Source: Spirogloea muscicola (lineage: Eukaryota). From it: a stretch of DNA of 38,542 nt. The translations under genes and the position numbers were made by a program. Positions 3,301 through 38,542 of this stretch are shown piece after piece (the stretch's first letter is position 1; the number at the start of each line of letters is the position of its first letter). Below the pieces are notes generated by a model, which searched no databases, was not told the DNA's origin, and saw only the letters and a list, made by a program, of their open reading frames with translations. The stretch spans positions 1,074,860-1,113,401 of the forward strand of contig WELB01000001.1 in the NCBI GenBank assembly GCA_009602725.1. The letters are read 5' to 3'.

Positions 3301-6300
3301 GGCAGGGACTCGTCTGCCCATTGTACGTGGTAGGCAGCCACTGCATTGTCTTTGCTGCGGATTCTCACTCACATAGAGTGCATTTCGTGCAGGACTTGGG
3401 TTTCCGATGTGACATGAACCAGGGTGAGTGCCGCAGCAAAGCTGCAGTGCACCTTGACTGCTTTGCTTGGGTGAAGCGTGACAGTTACTTGCCACAAGGC
3501 AGCCAGGGCCTTAAGGTACTCACTGCAAATAGCAAGCATAGCACACTTGGTACTGTTCCAGAGCTGAAGCAGGAGTAGCAGCAGATTCAGCACTAGACAG
3601 TGGTCATCTGCATACTTGCCTGGGCATATTCTCATTGTGAACCCGCATCAATTGAGCTTAATTTCCTACTACGTGCCAAGGAATGCCTTCTTGACTGCCA
3701 ATCTGCTATTATCCCCTCTTTGGTCAGGCTGTTACAAAGCAGAAGCTTGGCTACGACCCACTGGAGGTCAACCCAGAGGACATGGTCCGCTTTGCCATTG
3801 AGCAGCCTCAGGTAGGATGCTGTTCCAAGGCATTTGAGACTAAGGCATGAAGGTGACAGTTCATGTGCTTTCCTTGCACCTCTTATGCAATTCTGTAATC
3901 TACTCCTCTGACAATCTCATGCAGGTGATGGCCTCCTACTCTGTGTCTGATGCCGTGGCGACGTACTATCTGTACATGACATATGTGCACCCTTTCATAT
4001 TCTCCCTCGCCACCATCATCCCCATGCCACCACATGAAGTCCTTCGGAAAGGTTCTGGAACACTTTGCGAGATGCTGCTCATGGTGCAGGTGCGAGAGCG
4101 AACTTAAGCCATTGAAATGCCTGCCACTGCACAGACAGGGCCTCCTCTCTTATCAACATTGGGGTTCCAAGACAACATTCTGAAACTTAATGAAAGTGCA
4201 ACCACTCTTTGACAGGCTTTCAAAGGAAAAATTATCTGCCCAAACAAGCACAGCTCTGAGCAGGAGAAGACATACAACAATCACATGTTAGACAATGAGA
4301 CCTACATAGGCGGGCATGTGGAGTGCTTGGAGAGTGGAGTCTTTCGATCTGACCTCCCAACACATTTTCGCCTGGAATCGAAGGCCTACCAGGTGCCTCT
4401 CATATACGGGGCACTTTCACTTACAGGTCGACTATACTTGCCAATGATTGCTGCAGGTTTGTAAGGAACCTGAGCATTGAGGTTCTTGTAAGAGCTATTT
4501 GCACGAAGTAATCTGAAAGATCGGGGAAATTTTCTCTCTGACTGGAGTGAGTACTGGCGCAGGAGCTAATTGACCACCTGGATAGGGATTTGCATTTTGC
4601 AATTGTGGAGGAGAGCAAGCTGGAAATTGCTGATGTCAGCAACTACTCCGAAGTCAAGGAAGCCATTCAGAAGCAGGTATGGTGTGCAGACATTATTGCA
4701 ACTGAGCTGCCTTTGAGTGGCACCGTTATGCAGCTAGCTGCCGGTCAAGCTGTTAGACCACTATGCCCAAGCACATGCCAAGCACATGTTTGGAGGTGTT
4801 AAATGGCGGTGCTGTTATGTGTAGATAGCTCAGTCTCCACTTGTCCAGCAAGGGCTGGTAAGGTGCAAGGCTCACCTCCTACTTAGAGCTACTAGTCAAG
4901 ACGGGCTTGATTAGCTTGGGAGGATGCATGACTCCGAGTCTAAGCATCATCTTGCCATCTCATCTTCCAGTTAGAAGCTCTGAGAGATGCCCCAACAAGA
5001 GATGAGCCCCCAGTCATCTACCATCTGGATGTTGCAGCCATGTATCCCAATATCATCCTTACCAATCGCCTCCAGGTTGGTCACTTATGGCTTTGATTCA
5101 CCTCCAAGTGTGCTGGACTTGCATGTATGCCACTCACTAGTCCGCTCACTATACAGATGATCCTTAGATGGGACAGGCAACTTCAAGCGTGGAAGAGCAT
5201 TTCTAGGCACTCACAAGAGACCATCATCTTGTGCAGCCGCCGTCAATCGTGACAGACGAAGTGTGTGCTGCGTGTGACTTCAATAAGCCCGATAAGACAT
5301 GCCTGCGAAAAATGGAGTGGGTCTGGAGAGGAGAGACATTCATGGCTACCCGCAGGTGCGTATCTCTTGCATCGTAAGCTTTGTCAAAGCTCTGGCCTTT
5401 TCTTTGACATGTAGTGTACGGCAAGGCATTGGTTCTGTGTTTGCTGCTGTCTTCGATACATTCTCACGCCCGCGCTGCTTGAGGAGCTGTGAGAAAACGA
5501 AATGGGACAGGCTGATGAGTGTTCGCCACTCTTACAAAGATCGAACCTGTTCTGCAGTGAGTATGGCCACCTTAAGCATCAACTTGAAGCAGAGCAGTTT
5601 GCTTCTGCAAACAAGGGAGGTGCTCCAAGACTCTTCCGAGAGCTCACAAAGGACGAACAGGAAGCCAAGCTAAAGGATCGACTCAAAAGGTACTGCCAGA
5701 AGGTAATTTTGCAACATGTCTCATGCATCAAGCACAGCAAATAACAAGAGTTTTGATGTTGAAGCCTGATTTGCAGGTGACGTCCACCCTGAATTCCTCA
5801 CAAGACAGTACTGGATTTTGCTGTCAACTTGTACATGCTTCTCCCTCAGCAATGCATCTGCACACAATCACGATCTGAACATTTCTGGTACACTGATATC
5901 ACTTATAAGCCTTGCCAACATTGTCAAAAACAGGTCTACAAGCGTGTGTTAGACAAACCATTCTCAGAGTTGCGAACGGCTGGGATCTGCATGCGCGAGA
6001 ATCCTTTTTATGTCGACACAGTGAAAAGGTTTCTGCAACCCTTGGCCTTCTCAGCCTGCAACCCACCTATGGAGGCAAGCCCTTAATGATGGACTGTGAG
6101 GAGAGAAGGCATGGCACAAGCTAAGCTTGTCCCAATTGCATGACAATCGCATTTTGTTGCTTGCCAGCTTCCGAGATCGACGCTACGAGTACAAAGGTCT
6201 GAACAAGATCTGGAATAAACGCCTCCGCGATGCCAAGTCCCTTGGCGATCCACTGGGTGTTTCAGAAGCCCAGGTACTATGATGATGTGTAGTCAGCCTG

Positions 6301-9300
6301 CAGATCCGATGGGCTTCCTCTTGACTGACTTCGGCTCACGGATTCTGCAGAGCACACAGGATCTGCGTCGTAGCATAGGTGCTGACAGTGTCGCTGAAGC
6401 CACTGTTTTGCACTTGAGAAGCTCCTTCAGCATGCTGGGCCATTTTAGCTGTGACACGCATCATCCAGTCTCACGTCAGCAAACTTGCTCATTTTCATTT
6501 TCAGACAGCTGGTCTTACATATCACATACCTATGAAGTTGATCTACATATGTTGGTATTACTTGCAGGACATGGTCGTCTTGTATGATTCTTTGCAGCTG
6601 GCGCACAAATGCATCTTGAATTCATTTTACGGCTATGTGATGCGAAAGTAAGAGCATTTTCTGCTTGTATCTGCTGATCATGCTCGAATTGATAGTCCTT
6701 TCCACCAGGCTGCTCTGCCAACCTCGTGTAAATATAAACATAATAATCTGTTTAAAATTCATTCTTCCATAGGCTTGGTGCTAGACTCCACTTCAATCTT
6801 CCATCAAATCCTGCTCAGGCGCAGCACCTTGCTTCTTGTGCTACAGCTTCCTCACATGAATCTCTTCCTGTAACCATCAACAACAGAGGTGCAAGGTGGT
6901 ATTCAATGGAGATGGCAGGAGTGGTCACATATACAGGTGCAAGGATCATTCAGAATGCACGAGCGCTAGTGGAGCGGATCGGAAAGCCGCTTGAGCTTGA
7001 CACAGATGGCATTTGGTGTGCCCTTCCATCGTCTTTCCCAGAGAACTTCGTCTTTAACACGAGGTAGCAGGGCTGCCCATCATGCCTAGCATCCTTCAAA
7101 CATTACCACATGGCATTCCCTCTATGTGTTAAATCATGTTCTGCTTAAAGGGCACTCCATCCAATTCAATTATATCCTGCTTTCAACACCTTCTGTACAT
7201 GTAAATTTGCATGGCATGTGTGTCTGATTGCGTGTCAGGAGTGGGAAGAAGCTATCCATCTCTTATCCATGTGTGATGCTGAACGTTGAAGTGGTGGTGA
7301 ATAACAGCAATGACCAATACCAGGTAGCTCAGAGTCGTTTGTGACTTGAAGTCTTGTCATATATGATGGTGAACATAGGCCATCATCAGTATTAGTAATT
7401 GGCTTGGTGCAACAGGGGTCAAAGTATTGAGGTCCATTCGTCCTAATTCATATGCTGTCATGAATTTAAGACATTGACTTGGGACATTGGCATTGCTCTT
7501 CTGTCTGTGAGGCAGACACTGGTTGATTCTTTGCGGAAGGTGTATGTTACAAGCAAGGAATGCTCCATTAGTTTTGAGGTTGATGGCCCTTACAAGGTAT
7601 TATGATCCGTGCTTCAAGGAAGAGTTGCTGCTTTCCTCATGTTGCCCTTGTACTGCATGGTAGGATAGGCAGCACATTGGAGCATGATCAGAGGGATCGA
7701 TGTCACATAAACGACTCTTGACTGCGTGACCAGGCCATGATACTGCCTGCTTCAAAGGAGGAAGGGATATTAATAAAGAAACGGTATGCCGTTTTCAACG
7801 AAGATGGCTCCCTAGCAGAGCTGAAGGGATTTGAGATAAAGCGAAGGGGTGAGCTGAAGCTGATCAAGATCTTCCAGGTACATTCACACATCTTTGCAAA
7901 GAGATTCTCAATCTTCCTCGGCACTTTCTCCAGGTTTATGTAGGTACTCAAAACAAAGCTCGTTCTTGTGCAGTCGGAGATTTTCCAGAACTTTCTTCAT
8001 GGACAGACCTTGACGGAATGCTATGCTGCAGTTGGAGCTGTTGCCAACAGGTGGCTTGACATGCTGGAGGTGCAGTCTCACTGATGCAGGACTACTTAAC
8101 TACCTGAGGCATGTTGGCCACTGTCACAGCAAGCTGTGCTTTGCTATTGTCTGTTGCAGAAGCTTATCCTCTTCCTAACACTGCCTGACACGCTACTCCA
8201 TCTTCTCCATCATGTCTTCCCTGATTAAAGAATCAAGGCATAGATGTGGCCGACGACGAGCTCTTGGAGTACATCTCAGAAGCAAACACCATGAGCAAGT
8301 CCCTTGCCGAGTATGGCGAGAAAAAGTCGTGTGCCACTACAACTGCCCGGCGGCTGGCTGATTTCCTAGGAGATGCCATGGTGAAAGACAAGGGCCTGCG
8401 ATGCCAGTACATCATAGCCAAGACTCCAACAGTGAGCAATGAATAATCGCTATCTGCCATATTCTGTCAGCATGCATATGACCACCCTTACTTGCTCGTC
8501 TGTGTCCTAATAAGACCTTAATCAGTTACAGTTCCCTTGTTCTGTTGCATACTTGTTGCTTATTCTGCTGTTTCTATGAAATTTGAAGAGGAAAGACCCT
8601 CAAATACCTGAAGAGGTGTACAAATGACAATGTTGTAGATGCATCTCATGAAGAAGTAGGCTGAGGCGTGCTCAGCGCAACACATTGGCTTGATTGGTAG
8701 GGCATGCTCTCTTTAACGTCTCACAGATATTCTTCACACCTTGACAGGGCGCTCCGGTCAGTGAACGCGCCATTCCTGTGGCGATTTTCAATACTGAGCC
8801 TGGTACTTCCGCTTCTTTTCTTTGCCTTTGACTGCCGGTGCTTAACATCCATCCTGCTTCAATCTGCCTGACCTTTAGAGGAGTCCCATGTATGAGTGAC
8901 GTCTGATGATGGCAGTTGTGGTGCTTCAGAGATAATGAGGTCATATGTGAGGAAATGGTGCAAGATGTCTGGGGACTTGGAACTACGCGCCATTGTGGAC
9001 TGGGATTACTACCGAGGTCGTCTGAGCAGTTCCATCCAAAAGATCATCACCATCCCTGCGGCCATGCAGAAGGTTGTCAGGCAGATGCCTTGTCTGCCCA
9101 ATATGCACCAGCTGTTCACGTGCAATGTATACTTAAACAAGAAGCTGTGCTGAATATGAATTTGTTTGCAGATTGTCAACCCTGTTCCACGAGTTGTCCA
9201 TCCTAACTGGCTCTGGCGGAAGGTGAGGGACAAGGATGATAAGTTTCAGCAAAGGACCATCAAAGATCTCTTCCTACCTCAGAAGTCACTGCCTGCAGCA

Positions 9301-16506: not shown

Positions 16507-16738
16507 GACTGGGCCTGGACAAGCCAGCGTGAGTCATAGTACGACGACGTGTGTATGACAAGCTCCGAGTGCCACTCTTGGACAATCCGAGTTGGATCAG
16601 TGGTAGTGCAGGGAACCAGTCCCCTGACCTAGTAGCTCCCGTTCCCTACACATTGCTGGCAACGAGCCCTTCCAGCGCGAGCTTACTTAAGCAAGCATGG
16701 ATCATAGTACAAGACGTGAACATGACAACTCAGTAGTG

Positions 16739-16809
16739 CCACCCCATCTCAGATTGTCCAAGAGTGCCACTCTTGGACAATCACTCTTGGACAATCTGAG
16801 ATGGGGTGG
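16739..16809. repeat. 28-bp perfect inverted repeat (hairpin) with an internal tandem duplication, downstream of POL2
   Basis: CCACCCCATCTCAGATTGTCCAAGAGTG (16739-16766) is the reverse complement of 16782-16809. The loop holds a second CACTCTTGGACAAT. GAGTGCCACTCTTGGACAAT also occurs at 16567-16586. Confidence 0.9.
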
Positions 16810-17970
16810 TGGCAATGCAAGAGACTGATCTTCTTGCATTCTCTGACCTGACAGCCCTCTCCCTCCCCATAATCGGCTAGATGCTGATACTAATGTGCAA
16901 ATAGCTCCATGTTGGTTACGGCAAGGTGTGTAGCACTATGCACAAATTTAGCAGTTGATATAACTGGCTTATGCGCGTATTCAGATACTTGCATAGGATC
17001 TATCTTAACATGGCTGCGAGGAGGCCTGCACTGCCGAGTCAGGCATAGGTACATCAAAAGCCTCATCTCAGCAGAAGCCGGCACATCAGTACTCAGAGCT
17101 CGTGAAGCAGGTGCAATGCACGCCCCTAAGATTGAGCTGGCACAGATGGCATTGAGAATCTGGTGTTGCCCTGCCTTGACGGTGGTTACCAGTAGCAAAT
17201 CATGGGCAGCACTCGCACTTGCCACTCAGATCCACGGGGGCTCAGGCTGCCAGTCACAAGCCGCCAGAGCTTGTCAGCAGGCCTGGGACTGGACCATGCA
17301 TGTAAGCGGTGGGACAATCAGACCTGTGGAAGTATCCTCAAGCATGTCTGAATGTCACAAGTGCATGGCTGGCACACATGGTGGTCAAAGGAGTTCCAGA
17401 TTTCAGCTGGCGAAATGGGCTCCAGCGTGTGACAGGTGTCATTTCGTCTTCAAGCCTGACATGAGCAGCAAAGCTGACCTACCCTAGCTCTACAAAACTA
17501 GCTCAATGTGTAACTATGTATGAGCCATCGGCCAGGGGCCAACGAGCCAGGTGGAGCCAGCGAGCTCCGTGGCAAAGCTACACCCTACGCTAGCATTTAA
17601 ACAGGCATCCAGAAGTAGGTTGCAACCTGTGGAGTGACCAGGGCCCCCACCTCAGTCTCTCCTGGACGACTGTAGCAAGATTTGCGCACCGCCTGCAAGA
17701 AGCTTGCACAAAGGACAGCTTGGGGACATGTTTGAGGAGGTGCTGACGGGATAGCACAGAAGTCCGTGGCTCCTCTCACTGTGGGCTGCTATCTGACCCC
17801 ACTTCCAATGCCGACTTCCTCCGCCATCTTACCCTGCTTGAATGCAATCACCCACAGTGCCTCCTTGCAGATGCACGCAAGGAAGCCTGCTTCACAAGGC
17901 TCGCAAGCCTGTGCAGAGAACATCATGAACCCTGTTCAAGTCGGACCTGCAAAGCTCGCACCCTTTCCCA

Positions 17971-21164: not shown

Positions 21165-21325
21165 GAAGAAGCAAGCGCGGCCAGATGGACTGGTGGCTGG
21201 GAGAGGCCAGCCCAAAAGGAATGGACAAGGACAGAAGAATCCTGGTGCTAAGTACTAAGACAGCAGCAAGGGGACTCTCAGTAACCTCTAGTCTGAAGAT
21301 GCAAGTCCGAATAGTAGGTTGGAAG
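21165..21325 (-). mobile_element. 3' fragment of RLE-type non-LTR retrotransposon (tail copy 1)
   Basis: Minus strand reads ...PTYYSDLHLQTRGY* (stop at 21278-21280), followed by a UTR containing TTGTCCATTCCTTTGGGCTGGCCTCTCCCAGCC and a pyrimidine-rich end. Confidence 0.7.
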
Positions 21326-21350
21326 GGTCTTCTCTGTCCATTCCTTTTGG

Positions 21351-21526
21351 AGAAGTGGCACTCCCAATGGGGGCAAGGGCTGCGAAAAGCCAGCCCAAAA
21401 AGAATTCACAAAGGTTCAGAGGGGCCTAAGAGCGGTGAGCAGCTACAAAGGGGCCTGAGGATGCTATGGTAAAACAGGGGGAGGATGGATCACTCAGTAA
21501 GTACGAGTGAGGAGCCTCAGATCCGA
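21351..21526 (-). mobile_element. 176-nt retrotransposon tail inserted antisense into another tail, 5-bp TSD (TTTGG)
   Basis: Minus strand reads SDLRLLTRTY* (stop 21494-21496) plus a UTR ending GTGCCACTTCT. It is flanked by TTTGG at 21346-21350 and 21527-21531. Removing the insert and one TSD copy restores TGTCCATTCCTTTTGGGCTGGCTTCTCCCAGCC. Confidence 0.8.
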
Positions 21527-21589
21527 TTTGGGCTGGCTTCTCCCAGCCACCAGTCAATCTGGCCGCGCTTTCCTTTCACAGCCCCAGCC

Positions 21590-21685
21590 CCCCTTTTTCT
21601 TTTTGGAAGAGCCACTTTCCCTCACTTTCTTTTTGGGCTGGCTTTTCGCAGCCCTTGCCCCCAGTGGGAGTGCCACTTCTTCTCT
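21590..21685 (+). mobile_element. Retrotransposon 3'-UTR tail interrupted by a 19-nt antisense insert with 11-bp TSD
   Basis: TTTCTTTTTGG at 21596-21606 and 21626-21636 flanks AAGAGCCACTTTCCCTCAC. 21627-21680 is a near-perfect reverse complement of 21351-21404. Confidence 0.7.
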
Positions 21686-21967
21686 CGCACTTGGCTGGGC
21701 CGCCGGCGGCAGCACGCAACAGCCACCGCCGGACCGAGCTCTGACCCCAACCGACCTAGGAGCCGCTCGACCTGCCATCGACCTTGCTCCACACCGCCGC
21801 CGGCGCCGGCGACGGCGCCGGCGGGGTGGGACCCAACCGGCCGCTTCGCCGGCGACGGCGGAGCCCGTCATTGACGGCTGTTCGGCTCCTGCTCCCCCCT
21901 TTTGTTTTCACAGCCGATTCTTTCATATCAGCAGCCGCTTTCTTTTTTTTTGTTTTGTTAGAGTAAC

Positions 21968-22370
21968 CGCGGCCAGATTACTGGAGGCTGGGAGAGAAAA
22001 GAAAGAGCGCGCCCATTGAGGATATGGGCTGGAACAGCCAGCCCAAAAAAGAAGAAGTGGCACTCCCAATGGGGGCAAGGGCTGCGAAAAGCCAGCCCAA
22101 AAAGAATTCACAAAGGTTCAGAGGGGCCTAAGAGCGGTGAGCAGCTACAAAGGGGCCTGAGGATGCTATGGTAAAGCTGCTATGGCACCTTCGTGCCGGA
22201 AGAAGTGGCACTCCCAATGGGGGCAAGGGCTGCGAAAAGCCAGCCCAAAAAGAATTCACAAGGTTCAGAGGGGCCTAAGTGCGGTGAGCAGCTACAAAGG
22301 GGCCTGAGGATGCAATGGTAAAACAGGGGGAGGATGGATCACTCAATAAGTACGAGTGAGGAGCCTCAGA
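21968..22370 (-). mobile_element. Chain of minus-strand retrotransposon tails
   Basis: 22051-22175 and 22200-22370 are near-identical direct copies of 21351-21520; the latter reads LRLLTRTY* (stop 22343-22345). 21968-22050 holds two further hairpin/tail fragments (GGGCTGGCTGTTCCAGCCC...ATGGGCGCGC and TCTCCCAGCCTCCAG...CTGGCCGCG). Confidence 0.8.
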
Positions 22371-22590
22371 GCCCTAGCTGCTGTCTCTGGCTCTGTCCAG
22401 GGGACCCACTTCCAGGACCCTAGCATCTCTGACCTGCGGCTGCTCAGCAGGAATTACTGAGCCATTCGTAGCTGCTTTGTTTCTTCTTGTGCTTGTTTTT
22501 CTTAGCACTTCCCCTGGCTCCCTTCTCGTACTTTGTCCATTCTTTTTTGGGCTGGCTGTTCCAGCCCCTATCCTCTATGGGGCGCTCTTT
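22368..22590 (+). mobile_element. 3' fragment of RLE-type retrotransposon (subfamily ending SRNY*)
   Basis: 22368-22460 reads RALAAVSGSVQGTHFQDPSISDLRLLSRNY*. UTR has TTGTCCATTCTTTTTTGGGCTGGCTGTTCCAGCCC..CTCTATGGGGCGCTCTTT. Confidence 0.8.
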
Positions 22591-22591
22591 G

Positions 22592-22856
22592 GCTCATGCG
22601 GTCCACGCGCGGGCTGGCCGTGCTATGGCTGCTGCTTCCGGGTCTCGGCAAAGTGCCGCTTCTCCTGCTCCGAGTTACTCTGATCTGCTGTTGCTCACAC
22701 GTGGATACTGAGCAGCCATCTGCATCTCCCTCTGCACCATCTTGCACTTTGTAGTGTAGTCCTTTTTCAGCACCTCTTTCTTTGGCTTTGAACATTGTCC
22801 ATTCTTTTTGGGTTGGCTTTGCCAGCCCCTCTTCTCTATGGGCGAGCTCTCTCTCT
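22592..22856 (+). mobile_element. 3' fragment of RLE-type retrotransposon (subfamily ending LLTRGY*)
   Basis: 22592-22711 reads AHAVHARAGRAMAAASGSRQSAASPAPSYSDLLLLTRGY*. UTR has TTGTCCATTCTTTTTGGGTTGGCTTTGCCAGCCC..CTCTATGGGCGAGCTCTCT. Confidence 0.8.
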
Positions 22857-22992
22857 ATGGTAAAACAGGGGGAGGATGGACCACTCAGTAATTACGAGTG
22901 AGGAGCCTCAGATCCGACAGACTAGCTGCCGGGAAGCTATCACCCTGACGAAAGCCAGAGCCCGCAGCGAGAGCACGGCCAGCTCGCAGATG
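22855..22992 (-). mobile_element. 3' fragment of RLE-type retrotransposon (subfamily ending LTRNY*)
   Basis: Minus strand reads HLRAGRALAAGSGFRQGDSFPAASLSDLRLLTRNY* (stop 22885-22887). The UTR is truncated at a CTATGG microhomology with the neighbouring tail. Confidence 0.8.
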
Positions 22993-23372
22993 CCCAAAAA
23001 AGAATGAGCAGAGTACAAGAAGCCCAAGAAGAAGGGGGGCCAGCAAAGCCAGCCCAGAAATGGCCCCCTTTCTCTATGGGCGCGCACTTTCTTCCAGAAA
23101 GAATGGACAATGTCAAAAGCCAAAAAACAAAATACACACAGCCAGGCAGCTAGAGAATAAGACACGACGAAGCACAGGAAGCTCAATACCCCCGGGAGAG
23201 GCCAGCCCAAAAGAAGAAAGAAAGTGCGCGCCCATAGAAGGGCTCAATGGAAGGGCTCACTTTCTTTGGGCTGGCCTCCAATAAAGTCTTTGCTTCCGTT
23301 TGGAAGAGCCACACTCATTCTTCCCACAGCCAATGCTTTCCTCTTCTCTATGGGCGAGCACTTTCTTTTTTC
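22993..23372. mobile_element. Further nested tail fragments, including a 33-nt antisense insert with 7-bp TSD
   Basis: Minus strand has PRGY* (stop 23183-23185) plus UTR. CCAGAAA at 23054-23060 and 23094-23100 flanks TGGCCCCCTTTCTCTATGGGCGCGCACTTTCTT. More tail motifs occur at 23200-23240 (-), 23260-23280 (+) and 23340-23372 (+). Confidence 0.75.
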
Positions 23373-27455: not shown

Positions 27456-27819
27456 ATGAACAAGCGCCGACAGGCACTTGGACCTACTACTTGTTGCTGG
27501 CCTGCAGGGAGGACCTTGTTGTAACTCGATGGTACTCAGCTACACCATCTGTAGCCGACCTCCTGACTGATCTTTCATTCCCGCCTGCGTGCGTCGCGGC
27601 AGCAGGAGCGGAAGAGAGGTGGAACGCGCGCTCTGTCGGACGACGCGCGGCAACGACTGGGGCTGCTGGCGGTAACTCATCCCGCGAGGGGGTAGTGGTT
27701 GCTGATACTGGCGATCGTGAAGGCTTGCCAAGTGCGTGCCAAGAGAGAGCGAGCTCTAGCGAAGGAGGTGGCAACGAAGGGCCAGCCCAGAAGACACTTC
27801 GAATAACGTCTCGACCCCC

Positions 27820-28265
27820 CTGCACTACTCAGACTACCCCCGCAGTGACCACCTCCTCCCGGCCGCAATCGACACTTTCGGCTGCTTGGGTCCTCGCTTC
27901 CATACCCTACTCGAGAACATAGCGAGTCTGGGATATGCACGACGCGAGGATATGCTCCCAGCCCAGATGGGTATACCGGCAGCCTATCTGTCATTTCTGC
28001 GACGTCGAGTGTCAACCTGTCTGCAACGAGCTCAGGCGTATGCTCTGCATCAGAAAGCTGGTCGAGCCTTAGCTGCTGGCACAAGAGCTAGTCAATTGCC
28101 GTCCGGTATTCGAGCGTCAGCTAGCGACCTCTATGTGCTGACTCGTGGTTACTGAGCGGGTCAGCTTAGCAGCAGGTGACGTACATTTGTCCAATGTGCT
28201 TGCCTTTGTACTTGGCCACACATGGCCTCCCCATCTCTTAATATACACGCATTTTCTGTTCGGCC
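27820..28265 (+). mobile_element. 5'-truncated RLE-type non-LTR retrotransposon remnant (C-terminus plus 3' UTR)
   Basis: The open frame reads LHYSDYPRSDHLLPAAIDTFGCLGPRFHTLLENIASLGYARR...FLRRRVSTCLQRAQAYALHQKAGRALAAG...SDLYVLTRGY* (stop 28153-28155). This resembles the end of the restriction-like endonuclease region of CRE/NeSL/R2-superfamily elements (KxxxY...P.a.(E/D)tfG..G...R.S..LQR..A). Confidence 0.75.
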
Positions 28266-28409
28266 ACCCTGCAAAAGACGGGATACAATTTGTGGAAAAG
28301 CCGCAACATGGGATGACATACCAAAAGCAAAGCCAGTTGCTTCAATGAGAAGCAGTGATTAGCCACTCAGTAATGATCCCATTGTCGACTAGATGCAAGT
28401 GGAGTAGAC

Positions 28410-28545
28410 TTGCAGCTACTATGTCCCACTTGTACGTGCTCACACAGGTTTGATGCCTGCTCCTTTGACATTGTCCATTCTTTCTGGGCTGGCTTTGCTG
28501 GCCCCCTTTCTCTATGGGCGCGCTCTTTCTTCTTTCTTCTTTCTG
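28410..28545 (+). mobile_element. Divergent retrotransposon tail in the spacer of the long inverted repeat
   Basis: AATMSHLYVLTQV* (stop 28451-28453), then TTGTCCATTCTTTCTGGGCTGGCTTTGCTGGCCCCCTTTCTCTATGGGCGCGC and a (TCTT/TTC)n tail. Confidence 0.7.
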
Positions 28546-28557
28546 GCCAGAATAAGG

Positions 28558-28922
28558 AAATGCGTGTATATTAAGAGATGGGGAGGCCATGTGTGGCCAA
28601 GTACAAAGGCAAGCACATTGGACAAATGTACGTCACCTGCTGCTAAGCTGACCCGCTCAGTAACCACGAGTCAGCACATAGAGGTCGCTAGCTGACGCTC
28701 GAATACCGGACGGCAATTGACTAGCTCTTGTGCCAGCAGCTAAGGCTCGACCAGCTTTCTGATGCAGAGCATACGCCTGAGCTCGTTGCAGACAGGTTGA
28801 CACTCGACGTCGCAGAAATGACAGATAGGCTGCCGGCATACCCATCTGGGCTGGGAGCATATCCTCGCGTCGTGCATATCCCAGACTCGCTATGTTCTCG
28901 AGTAGGGTATGGAAGCGAGGAC
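28558..28922 (-). mobile_element. Inverted second copy of the retrotransposon remnant (365 bp)
   Basis: Reverse complement of 27890-28254. I see one substitution (ATA vs ATG, I/M in AQMG(I/M)PAAY). ORF 28657..28971(-) repeats ORF 27886..28155(+). Confidence 0.9.
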
Positions 28923-29170
28923 AAAGGAAGGGTCCAAAGCACCATCCTGCGATACTCTCGCCCTGCTTCATTAGCCCCCTGCTAGCCTAGGGCTTCGCTT
29001 AGTGTAGCGCCCTGTTAACACTTCCTTCGCCCTTTTTGTATTGGCTCGGCTTGGACTCCCTTTTACTTCATGAGTACCCCGCGTCTTACCTCTTCCGCGA
29101 GATTGAGCTGCAGGCCACGGGACGACGCGCAGACCTCGCATCCTCGCCCGCCGCTGAGCCCGCCCTTGTC

Positions 29171-29246
29171 AGGCGCGGCTCCAGTGTGTCAAGGCTCACT
29201 ACGGGCTACCTAGGCGCGGCTCCAGTGTGTCAAGGCTCACTACGGG
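29171..29246. repeat. 35-bp exact direct repeat (period 41)
   Basis: AGGCGCGGCTCCAGTGTGTCAAGGCTCACTACGGG at 29171-29205 and 29212-29246. Confidence 0.95.
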
Positions 29247-34588: not shown

Positions 34589-37500
34589 TTACTCGATAAC
34601 TGTTCGATGGTATCCTCGCTCTTGCACGAGGCTGTCTAAATAGCTGAGCACCTGTTGACAGCACATGCATGGTGTTAGTGACTATCCACATGGCTTCTCC
34701 ATTGCCTGCAATCGGCCTTTGGCAAGCAGCAGGCTTCGGTGGGATTTTCAGCAAGAGACCGTATCTGACCACAGCACATGCATGCTTGGAACACGCAATA
34801 ACTGCTCTAATTGACGGTACATTGGAAAAGGAAAACAGTGGCAATCTAGAGCAGTGGGAAGAAGTGGGAGAGGGATGTTCATGAGCTCACCAAGTCCCGC
34901 CGCTGCATGAGCAGGTCCAACTCCTCCAGGGTGAGTACGTCCTTGAACTTGGCCAAGAGGGTCGGAAGGTCCAGGAACCGCAGGCGTAGGTACGTCTTGG
35001 CTGACACGCACCTCACGGGCCCCGTCTGGAAGGCATTCTCATGCTCCATTGTGACCACTGCCTCCTGTTGTCATATGAGACGTTTTCAGGAGTGGCAATA
35101 CATGCTCAGTCTGTATTGTATGGAAAACAGAGAGCTCATTGAGTAGCTCTTTCCTGCCAAAGCAGATGGAGCTTGGTCTAATTGGCCAAACTGGCCCGCG
35201 CCACAGGAGATCACTAACAGGAAAACTTGGAAGGAAGGAAGGAAGCGCGAAAGAAGTATAGATCAAGAAGTCAAGACGAAGTGGGGCTGCAAGTCAAGCT
35301 GGACCTTGCGGAAGCCTGCCGCGTGGTCTATGAGGAGGGGCCGCATCCTGCTGTCGCTCCAGTGCTCGCCAAAGAGGAAGTGACCATGGTGGCGGTCCGA
35401 GTTGTTCAGCAGCACGTCCAATATACGCGTGTCGCTGAGCATCGTAGCCACTGGTACGCCCCAGTTGGCGGCCGCCACCTTCCTCAGCGGCTTGCTGTTT
35501 GGGACGTAGTAGATGAACGCGCCCTCCTTAAAGTGCTTGTAGTCCACCTCCACGCCGCCTCGACGATACGCTACCTGCTAGCAACGATCTCCACAACCAT
35601 CAGGCCTGCACAATGTGCTGCAAGATGTGAAGGTGGATGGCCTTCTGGAGTGGGGCATCAGCAGTAGAGGCAGAAGCAGGCTTGAGTGGTCTGCCTGCAC
35701 CCTTACATAACACATGGAAACATTGCAAGCAGTACAACGATATTTGAGTGCAAACTGGTGAAGCAAACACAATAAACATTTTGACGCTAATGTTTATGCC
35801 AGCTTCTGCCCTTGAAGGCTTCACTTTGAAGAACAACCCACAGCTTCAAGGTCATTAGGAGGAGGAGATAAGGGGAAATCTCAACCGGGGGTATGTAGTC
35901 CATGCCCAGGAGGAGGTTAAGCTCATACGCCACCCACTCCATTGGGGCGCGATGCCAGCCCTCGGCGTCCCCTTCAACCTTCGGCTTAAAGACGGCTCCA
36001 ATCTGCAGGTACTTGGACAGGCATGCAGTCAGCAGTAACGAGGGCGACGACACCGCAGGCTGCTCGCTTGTCCGCCCTGTTGAGAGGGTGTTTGGTGCAA
36101 ATTGGGTGCAGAGGATGAGCAAAGTGGTCAACACATGCTGCAAGGGCTCGTCAGTGAGCAACAGCATTATCAAGATGTACATAAGTGAGATAGTCATTAG
36201 CCAAGCCTGTCATTTCAGATGGCTACAACAATCCGACCTCAGCATTTGTCAGCGGCTCCTGAAGCTGGACAATATAGCTCTCATGGCCAAAGTCGGACTC
36301 GGTTGCCCGGCAATCCACCACGCGGCCGCTCGTCAAAAGCTCCCGGATGGCCATATGCTTGCCGTGCACAACAGGGTCATCCTCCGTGGACCTCTGCAAC
36401 CGCAATTTCGAAGCAAATATTACTACAGATAAGAGAAGGCAACCCCAGAGCCTGTGAAGACACTACTTCAAAGATGCTATGATATATGCGGACCATATTC
36501 GCAGCTGGAGCATGTCGCCTAGTCGCCCCGGGTCCCCGTGCTTAAGGAGGACCTGACTCTAGCAAGCGCTGTGCTGACCTTGAATTGGTTGCGCTTGAGC
36601 TCTAGGGCGGAGTTGGAAAGCGTCTGGACGGCCAGCGCAATGTAGTCGTCCGCATCCAGAGCTGCGGCAGCGCCCCGATGTGACTAAGCATTGCAGCTCA
36701 TTCTGGTCAGGATGTCGCATCTGATGCTAGCATCACAGGCTTCATAAGCTTCTCTAAGTACGCAGATGTTCACTTCAGAGCACCTGTTGCAGAAGCATCC
36801 CCTGTGCAGCGCACGGTCGTCTCCATGCTCACAATGGCCGCCGTCGTAGTGCCGGGGGGGCCGCTCTGCTCACTCAGCCAGCACCATGAGACTGCTGCTG
36901 TGCAAAGAACCGGCGCTCAGCATGGACCGCAGCCCGCATCACGGTACTTGCTGTCCTATGAAAAGATTTTCTGGCTTGCCTTGCGGATGGTGGTCTTGGT
37001 GCAGGCGAGTGCACCGGGGTGCGTGACAGCGCACTCCAGGATCTCCGGGAAGACGACAGCATCGACAACCGCCGCGTCCAGTAGCTCCGTCACGACTTCC
37101 TCTGCACGGTGCTGCGGCTCCACTGCACTGCCTACGGCCAGGACCTCTGTAGCAGCGCCGCTGTCGCAGTCGCCGCCGGCCAGGTCCTCATCCAGCAGGT
37201 CCAGCCGCTGCTCAAGCCACTGGCAGCAGCAAGATGCAATCAAGGAATAGGGATTTGCATCAGAGAATATAATACCATGGTGCAAGACATCACCTGCTGG
37301 ACAGGCTTTTTACATTTGTAGCCTGCGGCCATCAAGGAGGCGCTTGCCATTCCATTGATCTACACATAAGGTCACAAGACGGACTTCACAAGCTAACAAC
37401 GAGTAATAAGCCGCGTGACATGAATGTGGGTCAGAAAGCACCCGGGGCTGCCTTCAGTGACAGGCACTGGTAAGATCCCACTACACTGACCCTAACCCAA

Positions 37501-38542
37501 AATTCCAAACCCTCAATCCCAAAACCTAAAGCCCTGTGACAGCATACCATGTGGTCATTGTCCTCCGCAGGGGCTTCGTCAGGTCGACCTTCGCTCAGCA
37601 GCGGCGGGGCCTTGTTCTGCAGGCCCTCGACGGCGGCGGCGGCCTTTGCGGCCACGGCAGCCTGCAGCTCTCTGTCCAGCTCGCGGATGCTCGCCCGCAG
37701 CCGCTCCGCCTCGGCGCGGAGCTCCTCGGCGCGCCGCTCCTCGGCGCGCCGCGCCTCCGCCGCGCGCCGCAGCTCCTTGCTGCACCGCAGCTCCTCTGCC
37801 TGGCGCAGCCTCGCCAGCTTGGTCAGCTTCGCCACCTCCAGCCGCGAGTCCTGGATCCTGCGATCGACGCCTCCAGCGACCGACTCAGAGACTGAAGCCG
37901 CAGTGCTCGCAGTGAGCATCGCAGGCCGCCATGGCCGCCTCGACAAGTCGCTGTCTCATCTCACATCTAAACCCTAACCCTTAAATCCTAATACCATAAA
38001 CCTTCCCTAAACCCCACTCCTAAATCCTAAATGTCATCCCTTGTAAATCCTAAACCCTTAAATATCTAACCCTGATCCCTCAAACACCAATACTCCAAAC
38101 CCGGAATCTTAAACCGGCGGTTAGAAACACATAGCTCTTGCCGCGCGCACTGCACGGCCACCATTGCCGTCGCGCCAACGACCGTCGGCGGCGCTCGGGC
38201 GGCGGCTCGGAGCTCACCGGTGCCCCAGCGCAGAGACCGTCTCCCGCAGCGTCTGCAGCATGGCGCTGTTCTGCCGCTCCACCACCGCCAGGCCCTCGGC
38301 GATGCGCTCCATGTCAACGTCTCCCAGGAAGTCCCGCGCCGGCTCCGCCTGCGGCGGCGACGCCGGGGCCGCGCCGCCGTCGCCGTCTGGCACGGCGGAC
38401 GCGGGCATGTCCAGGGTGCTGCTGCCGACCCACGGCAGCTGGCCAGCGAGGCTGCCGAGCTTCCGGCGGATCGAGCCGTTGGCCCGCTGCTGCTGCGGCG
38501 GCAGCGGCGGCGGCGGCGGCGGAGTTGGCGGCGTGGCTGCGG
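34589..38542 (-). CDS. Coiled-coil protein with C-terminal PI3/PI4-kinase-like (atypical kinase fold) domain; 5' end beyond the window
   Basis: Phase-consistent exons >38542-38218, 37950-37548, 37219-36980, 36865-36815, 36683-36579, 36393-36238, 36002-35886, 35574-35305, 35064-34891, 34651-34589. Kinase-fold motifs AVFKP, EWVAYEL..LLGMDYIPP, LDVLLNNSDRHHGHFL, LIDHAAGF. An E/R/A-rich coiled coil lies in exon 37950-37548. The kinase exons are firm; their joining to the coiled-coil exons is less certain. Confidence 0.75.
37489..37535. repeat. Degenerate telomere-like (CCCTAAA/TTTAGGG) tract in intron
   Basis: ACCCTAACCCAAAATTCCAAACCCTCAATCCCAAAACCTAAAGCCCT. Confidence 0.7.
37966..38115. repeat. 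Degenerate telomere-like (CCCTAAA/TTTAGGG) tract in intron
   Basis: About 150 nt of AAACCCTAACCCTTAAATCCTAA...CCCTAAACCCC...TCCTAAATCCTAAA...ATCCTAAACCCTTAAA, in a C/A-rich strand almost devoid of G. Confidence 0.85.

What the first reader, a model, noticed from the sequence alone, without database searches (positions are those of the whole stretch)
21331..23110. Self-targeting retrotransposon: three antisense insertions with TSDs at the same nucleotide of the family's own 3'-UTR motif
Seen: three insertions interrupt the conserved UTR motif (TGTCCA)TTC(T/C)TT(T/C)TGG^GCTGGC at the same position. (a) 176 nt at 21351-21526, TSD TTTGG. (b) 19 nt at 21607-21625, TSD TTTCTTTTTGG. (c) 33 nt at 23061-23093, TSD CCAGAAA (TTTCTGG on the host strand). 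Inserts (a) and (c) are clearly the extreme 3' end of a family member and (b) resembles one. All are antisense to the host, with the 3' end abutting the ...TGG. Established: a fixed first nick, variable TSD length and 5' truncation are the signature of target-primed reverse transcription, and RLE elements (R2, CRE, NeSL) are typically site-specific, for example for rDNA, spliced-leader genes or microsatellites. Inference: the target here is a site in the element's own 3' UTR, so each insertion creates new targets and new inverted repeats. That would be a self-seeding safe-harbour system.
Basis: partly seen in the sequence, partly recalled or inferred. Interest (0 to 1): 0.9.

Follow-up and report, generated by a model that had tools for sequence, protein, structure and literature searches.

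The report
Algal retrotransposons nesting in own tails
Short copies of several related R2-like jumping genes in a green alga sit inside one another's tail ends, four times at exactly the same base of a shared tail motif (three backwards, one forwards), which likely means the elements favour, but are not confined to, a target that they carry themselves.

Summary
Real, but narrower than claimed. The region is a nest of 5'-truncated copies of several related RT + restriction-like-endonuclease LINE families of a zygnematophyte alga. Inserts (a) and (c) are confirmed: TSD-flanked, antisense, at TT(T/C)TGG^GCTGGC, with rebuilt empty sites matching intact copies 54/57 and 43/43. Insert (b) reads better as a sense tail and is not a secure case. 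I found two more events at the same bond: an antisense 754-nt block at 27793-28546 and a sense 938-nt block at 22054-22991. Three other TSD events lie elsewhere in the tails, so 4 of 7 secure events hit the bond. It is a hot spot used in both orientations and across families, not a strict antisense site. An RT+RLE parent exists in the same species' gene models. The motif is the 5' arm of a 3'-UTR hairpin also seen in distant relatives. More distant relatives do not self-nest (33 of 35 ends). Genome-wide specificity is untested. Self-nesting LINEs are known (Cnl1, Zepp), and this scan's notes report similar nests on other DNA. New variant of a known kind.

The parts
21165..21332 (-). Intact C-family stub: ORF end SDLHLQTRGY* (stop ends at 21278), 3' UTR, uninterrupted motif at 21206-21217
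21335..21350 (+). Left half of the C-family host of insert (a); ends in TSD copy TTTGG (21346-21350)
21351..21526 (-). Insert (a): 5'-truncated A-family copy (last 11 codons plus 3' UTR), antisense, at the TGG^GC bond
21527..21578 (+). Second TSD copy (21527-21531) and right half of the C host of (a)
21576..21625 (+).
21627..21686 (+). A-family tail stub that starts at the motif
21962..21996 (-). Downstream half of a C host split in its hairpin loop (event g); TSD copy 21990-21996
21997..22053 (-). Downstream half of the D-like host of event e; repeat copy 22041-22053
22054..22175 (-). 3' part of the A-family copy of event e (sense insertion at the TGG^GC bond); TSD copy of event f at 22166-22175
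22176..22854 (+). Event f: block of a D-family stub (22176-22199 and 22372-22592) followed by a B2-family stub (22590-22854), antisense in the A 3' UTR at another site, TSD CTATGGTAAA
22200..22373 (-). Third A-family copy, antisense in the ORF end of the D stub; no clean TSD found
22855..22993 (-). 5' part of the A-family copy of event e (ORF end ...SDLRLLTRNY*); TSD copy of f at 22855-22864
22992..23022 (-). Upstream half of the D-like host of event e; repeat copy 22992-23004 (11 nt plus 2 nt that fit either side)
23022..23060 (-). Downstream half of the B host of insert (c); TSD copy 23054-23060
23061..23093 (+). Insert (c): 33-nt B-family 3' end, antisense to its host, at the TGG^GC bond
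23094..23196 (-). Upstream half of the B host of (c): ORF end RGY*, 3' UTR; TSD copy 23094-23100
23194..23213 (-). Upstream half of the C host of event g; TSD copy 23194-23200
23210..23372 (.). Further tail fragments in both orientations (23210-23238 -, 23265-23278 +, 23340-23372 +); junctions not resolved
27735..27792 (-). Downstream half of the F host of event d; TSD copy 27787-27792
27793..28546 (+). Event d: antisense block at the TGG^GC bond: H-family stub with an open 120-codon RLE end (27793-28155) and UTR to about 28257, 204 nt seen once in the window, then a B tail (28462-28546)
28547..28552 (+). Second TSD copy of event d (CCAGAA)
28554..28929 (-). Event h: H-family stub (28560-28923), sense in the F host 7 nt upstream of the bond, TSD AAGGAA at 28554 and 28924; forms a 368-nt inverted repeat (366 of 368 identical) with the stub in d

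Best explanation
The region is a nest of 5'-truncated copies of several related RT + restriction-like-endonuclease LINE families in which four TSD-flanked insertions split the same bond, TT(T/C)TGG^GCTGGC, of a motif shared by their 3' UTRs, likely because the element protein nicks that motif preferentially. Shown by the sequence: the TSDs, the truncated 3' ends, the two orientations, the cross-family landing, and three further TSD events elsewhere in the tails. Inferred from the TSDs: a staggered cut with 3' overhangs, one nick fixed at TGG^GC on the host's sense strand and the other 5-11 nt upstream on the opposite strand. Inferred: either freed 3' end can prime reverse transcription; priming from the TGG end gives the antisense copies (a, c, d), and priming from the other end, where AAGAA could pair with the RNA's UUCU tail, gives the sense copy (e). 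Inferred: the two-family blocks under one TSD (d, f, g) come from template jumps or read-through RNAs. Each new copy that includes the tail brings a new motif, so nests would grow by themselves. The site is a hot spot, not the only target.
For: TSDs at seven secure events, four at one bond; rough chance 1.6e-4, 1.0e-5 and 2.2e-6 for one target bond per 60, 150 or 250 element bonds. Rebuilt empty sites match intact copies: a 54/57, c 43/43, e 61/70, f 174/176, g 40/44. All 12 exact motif copies lie in two patches. The ORF-end peptide occurs 8 times, all in the same two patches. RT+RLE parent: P0014 has LDISNAFN...YADD and the RLE residues and aligns over its length to the full-length protein P0050 (31%, E 2e-68); P0043 matches Pfam RVT_1 (E 6.6e-19) and R2 proteins in the PDB (E about 1e-6). 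Nests elsewhere in the genome are suggested by gene models that join pieces of 2-3 families (P0008, P0024, P0028, P0034, P0040) and by family-bearing models that overlap on opposite strands (s13: P0010 with P0040; s25: P0024 with P0034). TSDs from 3'-overhang staggers are established for RLE LINEs (PMC6895275 section 14); Cnl1 TSDs run from 1 to 12 bp or are absent (10.1101/2021.08.11.455996).
Against: Only one 38.5-kb window was examined at base level; no genome was held. The events were found by eye, partly guided by the motif, so the chance figures are optimistic. Three of seven TSD events and one TSD-less insertion (22200-22373) are at other sites. Insert (b) fails as an antisense case. 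Related elements from metagenome contigs show no such habit: 33 of 35 3' ends have no family sequence next to them and 0 of 80 loci carry the 16-nt motif. In event d, 28314-28415 had no contig cover in any of four runs (the tool warns that a hole proves nothing). No intact full-length ORF of these families was recovered, and no nicking was measured.
Confidence: 0.6

Rival explanations
1. Regional nesting with a weak local preference: the elements land in existing copies because of chromatin or because insertions elsewhere are purged in this gene-dense genome, and T-rich-GG stretches are merely easy to nick or prime; there is no recognition of the element's own motif.
For: Three of seven TSD events and several unresolved junctions lie at other tail or ORF sites. 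Both nests lie outside the long ORFs and the spliced gene of the window. Cnl1 and Zepp nest without a reported single site in the passages read.
Against: Four independent events share one bond. The window has many other TT(T/C)TGG hexamers on both strands with no tail next to them.
Confidence: 0.22
2. Structure-led or RNA-led homing: the protein, which would bind the 3'-UTR stem-loop as RNA, also binds the same hairpin when it extrudes from DNA (cruciform, or the displaced strand of an R-loop made by the element's RNA) and cuts at its base, with no separate DNA-sequence code.
For: The bond lies 2 nt into the 5' arm of a predicted hairpin. The hairpin G(C/T)TGGC-N3-GCC(A/G)(A/G)C is kept in the 3' UTRs of L001-L003. 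R2 endonuclease cleaves open 4-way junctions (PMC6895275 abstract). Event g lands in the hairpin loop.
Against: No pair shows a change on both sides in 9 tails, and folding z-scores are strong only for the two B-type tails (-3.2, -4.1; others -1.6 to +0.6). Insert and host are different families in a, d and e, which argues against long RNA-DNA pairing. L001-L003 show no nesting at their hairpin in the flank printed.
Confidence: 0.13
3. The junctions are products of recombination or repair between inverted repeats, or of mis-assembly of a high-copy repeat, not of retrotransposition.
For: The family is very repetitive (4,501-7,091 contigs laid per run on 1.5 kb); part of block d has no contig cover; the junctions of the main nest were not checked against reads.
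Against: Clean TSDs of different lengths and sequences, intact 3' ends, copies that differ by point changes, and empty sites that rebuild to intact copies. A contig without a difference covers 28893-29100 across the right end of event h in all four runs.
Confidence: 0.05

Closest known systems
Cnl1 of Cryptococcus (CRE-type non-LTR retrotransposon)
   Same: RT+RLE early-branching LINE, mostly 5'-truncated copies, short variable TSDs, insertion into pre-existing copies forming nested arrays (passages of 10.1101/2022.06.10.495668, 10.1101/2021.08.11.455996 and PMC7175516).
   Different: Cnl1 nests in tandem orientation next to telomeres; here the nests are small and lie between genes, mix several families, take both orientations, and show one bond in the 3' UTR hit four times. 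No fixed self-site for Cnl1 appeared in the passages read.
Zepp / ZeppL of Coccomyxa and Chlamydomonas
   Same: Green-algal LINE forming clusters of nested copies (passages of PMC3446292 and 10.1101/2022.06.16.496473).
   Different: ZeppL is described as an L1 LINE, with about one large cluster per chromosome, probably centromeric; here an RLE lineage with two small nests in 38 kb and copies on many scaffolds. The original Zepp paper was not held, so its target sites were not compared.
Site-specific RLE LINEs (R2, R4, NeSL/Utopia, CRE/SLACS, MoTeR/FoTeR)
   Same: Same domain order and PD-(D/E)xK-type endonuclease, fixed nick with variable second nick; targets are multicopy repeats, transposons included (passages of PMC4640811 and PMC12857005).
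   Different: Their targets are host repeats (rRNA, snRNA, spliced-leader genes, telomeres). Here the target motif is part of the element's own tail; Rfam gave no family at its gathering score and no snRNA, rRNA or tRNA match among 7 weak hits.

Membership tests
RLE-type non-LTR retrotransposon | Single ORF with reverse transcriptase followed by a C-terminal restriction-like endonuclease | tested here: met
   P0014 (same-species gene model, 82% to the window peptide over 28% of it) has RT and RLE motifs, with the RT partly missing (Pfam RVT_1 only E 0.21); it aligns to full-length P0050; relatives P0043 and L001 have one ORF of about 1070-1100 aa with RT.
RLE-type non-LTR retrotransposon | Zinc knuckle, H(D/N), E, then PD...D/E and K residues of the REL domain (consensus quoted in PMC12857005) | tested here: met
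   Alignments A1 and A2 show C-x-C...H-x3-C...H(D/N)...E...D-x14-D...K...Y; the knuckle His is missing in P0014 but present in P0010. Compared with the consensus read.
RLE-type non-LTR retrotransposon | 5'-truncated copies with intact 3' ends and TSDs (target-primed reverse transcription) | tested here: met
   Seven TSD-flanked events, TSD 5-13 nt, U-rich (TTCT) 3' ends.
CRE clade | Placement with CRE1/2, SLACS, CZAR, Cnl1, MoTeR in an RT phylogeny | not tested
   No named reference proteins came back from three homologue searches. 'CRE-like' rests on recalled motif resemblance and is a lead only.
Sequence-specific LINE (R2-like) | Most genomic copies sit at one nucleotide of one target | tested here: inconclusive
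   4 of 7 secure TSD events in this window; no genome-wide count.
Sequence-specific LINE (R2-like) | One fixed orientation relative to the target | tested here: not met
   Three antisense and one sense event at the bond.
Cnl1-type self-nesting | Tandem-orientation arrays beside telomere repeats | tested here: not met
   Nests hold both orientations and lie between genes, away from telomere repeats.
Zepp-type clusters | L1-type element in one large cluster per chromosome | tested here: not met
   RLE at the C-terminus; two separate nests of about 2.2 and 1.3 kb in this window and copies on more than 15 scaffolds.

The most novel reading that the evidence does not exclude
A group of streptophyte RLE LINE families shares one element-encoded target: the protein recognises the DNA copy of its own 3'-UTR stem-loop signal and cuts it at a fixed bond with 3' overhangs that can both prime, so the families home into each other's tails genome-wide and build their own dispersed landing pads. 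This would tie RNA-template recognition to DNA-target recognition and give a new short, portable target for R2-like insertion tools.
Probability: 0.25. Interest if true: 0.75.

Novelty: new variant of a known kind. Interest (0 to 1): 0.45.

Why it matters
How RLE retrotransposons gain and change target sites is open, and self-nesting elements such as Cnl1 and Zepp are described by region and orientation rather than by a cut site in the passages read. A bond hit repeatedly, across families and in both orientations, names a short testable substrate and suggests how a self-made safe harbour can arise in a gene-dense genome. If only a regional bias holds, it is ordinary nested-transposon biology.

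Tried and rejected
No whole genome was held, so 3' junctions could not be counted genome-wide; earlier scan notes held nothing for this genome. Contigs of four runs from one sample were laid on 27600-29100: they show a very repetitive family, but the tables list only the best-supported loose ends and joints (24 shown, 2191 not shown), too few to tabulate flanks; 28314-28415 had no cover, which the tool says proves nothing. No RNA holder was listed. The junctions of the main nest were not checked against reads or contigs. Captured snRNA, rRNA, tRNA or ribozyme target: Rfam gave 7 weak hits, none at gathering score and none of these kinds; rejected. Compensatory pairing in the tail: 0 of 15 pairs change on both sides in 9 tails; not shown. 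Reading (b) as antisense: rejected. A possible TSD at 23274/23375 was left out of the count because that repeat is part of the host hairpin; the insertion at 22200-22373 was left out for lack of a TSD; (b) was left out as undecided. My first reading of the 368-nt inverted arm as the host of d was dropped when the arm proved to have its own TSD. Two protein alignments were too diverse to search metagenomes; a closer one worked. Pfam found nothing for the RLE end. Nine literature searches (listings only, apart from the papers named in the report) showed no description of these families or of an RLE LINE targeting a fixed bond in its own 3' UTR; the library lacks most subscription papers and Repbase, and the original Zepp paper was not held. 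No supplements were read.

Full report
Setting. The window is intron-rich eukaryotic DNA; 1-16.5 kb holds a long spliced gene that I read as DNA polymerase epsilon (recalled from its peptide motifs, no call). No genome was held. The 120-codon peptide P0001 from 27793-28155 has 12 longer homologues, all EukProt gene models with SM identifiers, the best three 96-99% identical. The source labels such models Spirogloea muscicola (12 of the 20 proteins looked up), so the window most likely comes from this zygnematophyte alga (inferred). Relatives also occur in Closterium and Riccia.

Observation. The motif TTYTGGGYTGGC occurs 12 times against 0.04 expected, all in two patches. Insert (a) is the last 11 codons and the 3' UTR of family A, antisense in a C-family tail; insert (c) is the last 33 nt of a B tail, antisense in a B tail. 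Taking them out restores sequences that match intact copies at 54 of 57 and 43 of 43 nt. Insert (b) does not hold as antisense: with its left flank it aligns to A tails on the + strand, in register with the hairpin's 3' arm (score 29, 2 of 500 shuffles), and only weakly reversed (18, 30 of 500).

What else is there. Mapping ten reference pieces from the window back onto it and looking for flanking repeats gave seven secure TSD events. At the bond TGG^GC: a (TSD 5 nt), c (7 nt), d (6 nt, 27793-28546), all antisense, and e (22054-22991, repeat of 11 nt plus 2 that fit either side), which is sense; the host of e rebuilds to a D-like tail at 61 of 70 nt. Elsewhere: f (22176-22854, 10-nt TSD, antisense, in the A 3' UTR; rebuild 174 of 176), g (21997-23193, 7-nt TSD, sense, in the hairpin loop 13 nt past the bond; rebuild 40 of 44) and h (28560-28923, 6-nt TSD, sense, 7 nt before the bond). 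Left out of the count: (b), a TSD-less A copy at 22200-22373, and a doubtful repeat at 23274/23375. The nesting order in the main patch is g, then e inside g, f inside e, and the TSD-less copy inside f. Four of seven at one bond has a rough chance of 1.6e-4 to 2.2e-6; the events were found by eye, so this is optimistic. Blocks d, f and g each join two families under one TSD, the 5' member keeping all or most of its tail, which fits template jumping (known for R2-type RT; recalled, and PMC8857657 seen as a search listing only) or read-through RNA.

The element. The ORF-end peptide (...SDLxxLxRxY*, or its last codons) occurs 8 times, all in the two patches. P0014 carries RT motifs and the RLE and aligns to the full-length P0050 at 31%, E 2e-68. 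P0043 matches RVT_1 and R2 proteins in the PDB; L001 has one ORF of 1069 codons. The REL residues agree with the consensus quoted in PMC12857005 (passages; alignments). Clade membership (CRE) was not tested. Contigs from one sample show the family is very repetitive (4,501-7,091 contigs laid per run); depth there is no copy number.

The motif. It is the pyrimidine run and 5' arm of a predicted 3'-UTR hairpin. In nine aligned tails the inner stem is paired in 86% of cells, with three pairs varying on one side and none on both; the 5' arm is nearly invariant. Folding is significant only for the two B-type tails of six folded. A strict hairpin pattern was found in the 3' UTRs of the three closest metagenome relatives L001-L003 and once elsewhere (L067) among 48 representative loci, so the hairpin looks like an old RNA signal of the lineage, not a recently captured host gene; Rfam found no host RNA family.

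Beyond the window. Same-species gene models that join pieces of two or three families (P0008, P0024, P0028, P0034, P0040) and family-bearing models that overlap on opposite strands on scaffolds s13 and s25 point to more nests, but give no junction sequence. Against a clade-wide habit: of 80 loci from metagenomes (48 groups), 45 representatives of the more distant families were examined, 35 had a 3' end with flank, and only 2 (probably one locus) had family sequence next to it, in tandem; none of the 80 has the 16-nt motif.

Mechanism. Shown: TSDs, truncation, orientation, cross-family landing. Inferred: a staggered cut with one fixed nick on the host's sense strand and a second 5-11 nt upstream; TSDs from such 3'-overhang staggers are established for RLE LINEs (PMC6895275, section 14). 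Either end would prime, which explains three antisense copies and one sense copy at one bond. Whether the protein reads the sequence or an extruded hairpin is open; R2 cuts open 4-way junctions (same paper, abstract). I put 0.6 on a motif-directed hot spot, 0.22 on regional nesting with weak local bias, 0.13 on structure- or RNA-led homing as the sole cause, and 0.05 on artefact.

Comparison. Cnl1 inserts into itself in tandem, near telomeres (passages) and is CRE-type (passage). Zepp forms nested clusters, about one per chromosome (passages). RLE LINEs are often target-specific, transposons being among the known targets (PMC4640811, passages). So self-nesting is known; what differs here is a base-exact hot spot in the element's own 3' UTR, shared across families and used both ways. 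Nine searches listed no paper on this; the library is incomplete. Unchecked notes of this scan describe similar nests in other genomes, which I did not test.

Verdict. A real feature, partly as described. New variant of a known kind; interest 0.45, held down by the known principle and the missing genome-wide test.

Noticed in passing
window 27890-28922: Two H-family stubs form a 368-nt inverted repeat (366 of 368 identical) with 297 nt between the arms; such repeats could yield hairpin RNA for silencing.
   Followed up: partly
window 28258-28461: 204 nt inside block d that match nothing else in the window; 28314-28415 had no contig cover in four runs. Origin unexplained.
   Followed up: partly
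window 27600-27796: Two further contig versions about 90% alike cover the left flank of event d, probably duplicated loci; they could hold the empty site.
   Followed up: no
window 16573-16819: A separate short repeat (CACTCTTGGACAATC...) in three direct copies and one inverted piece just after the polymerase gene.
   Followed up: no
window 29171-29246: Exact 35-nt direct repeat, 41 nt apart.
   Followed up: no
window 37480-37530 and 37965-38110: Degenerate telomere-like runs (AAACCCT, AAATCCT) inside the window.
   Followed up: no
P0017 (gene model on scaffold s353): An RLE segment of about 85 residues of a related family repeated nine times head to tail: a satellite derived from the element, or a mis-assembly.
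   Followed up: no
L008/L014 660-1240 and L067/L073 2406-2639: Distant relatives have an antisense RLE fragment upstream of or inside the main copy; isolated cases.
   Followed up: no
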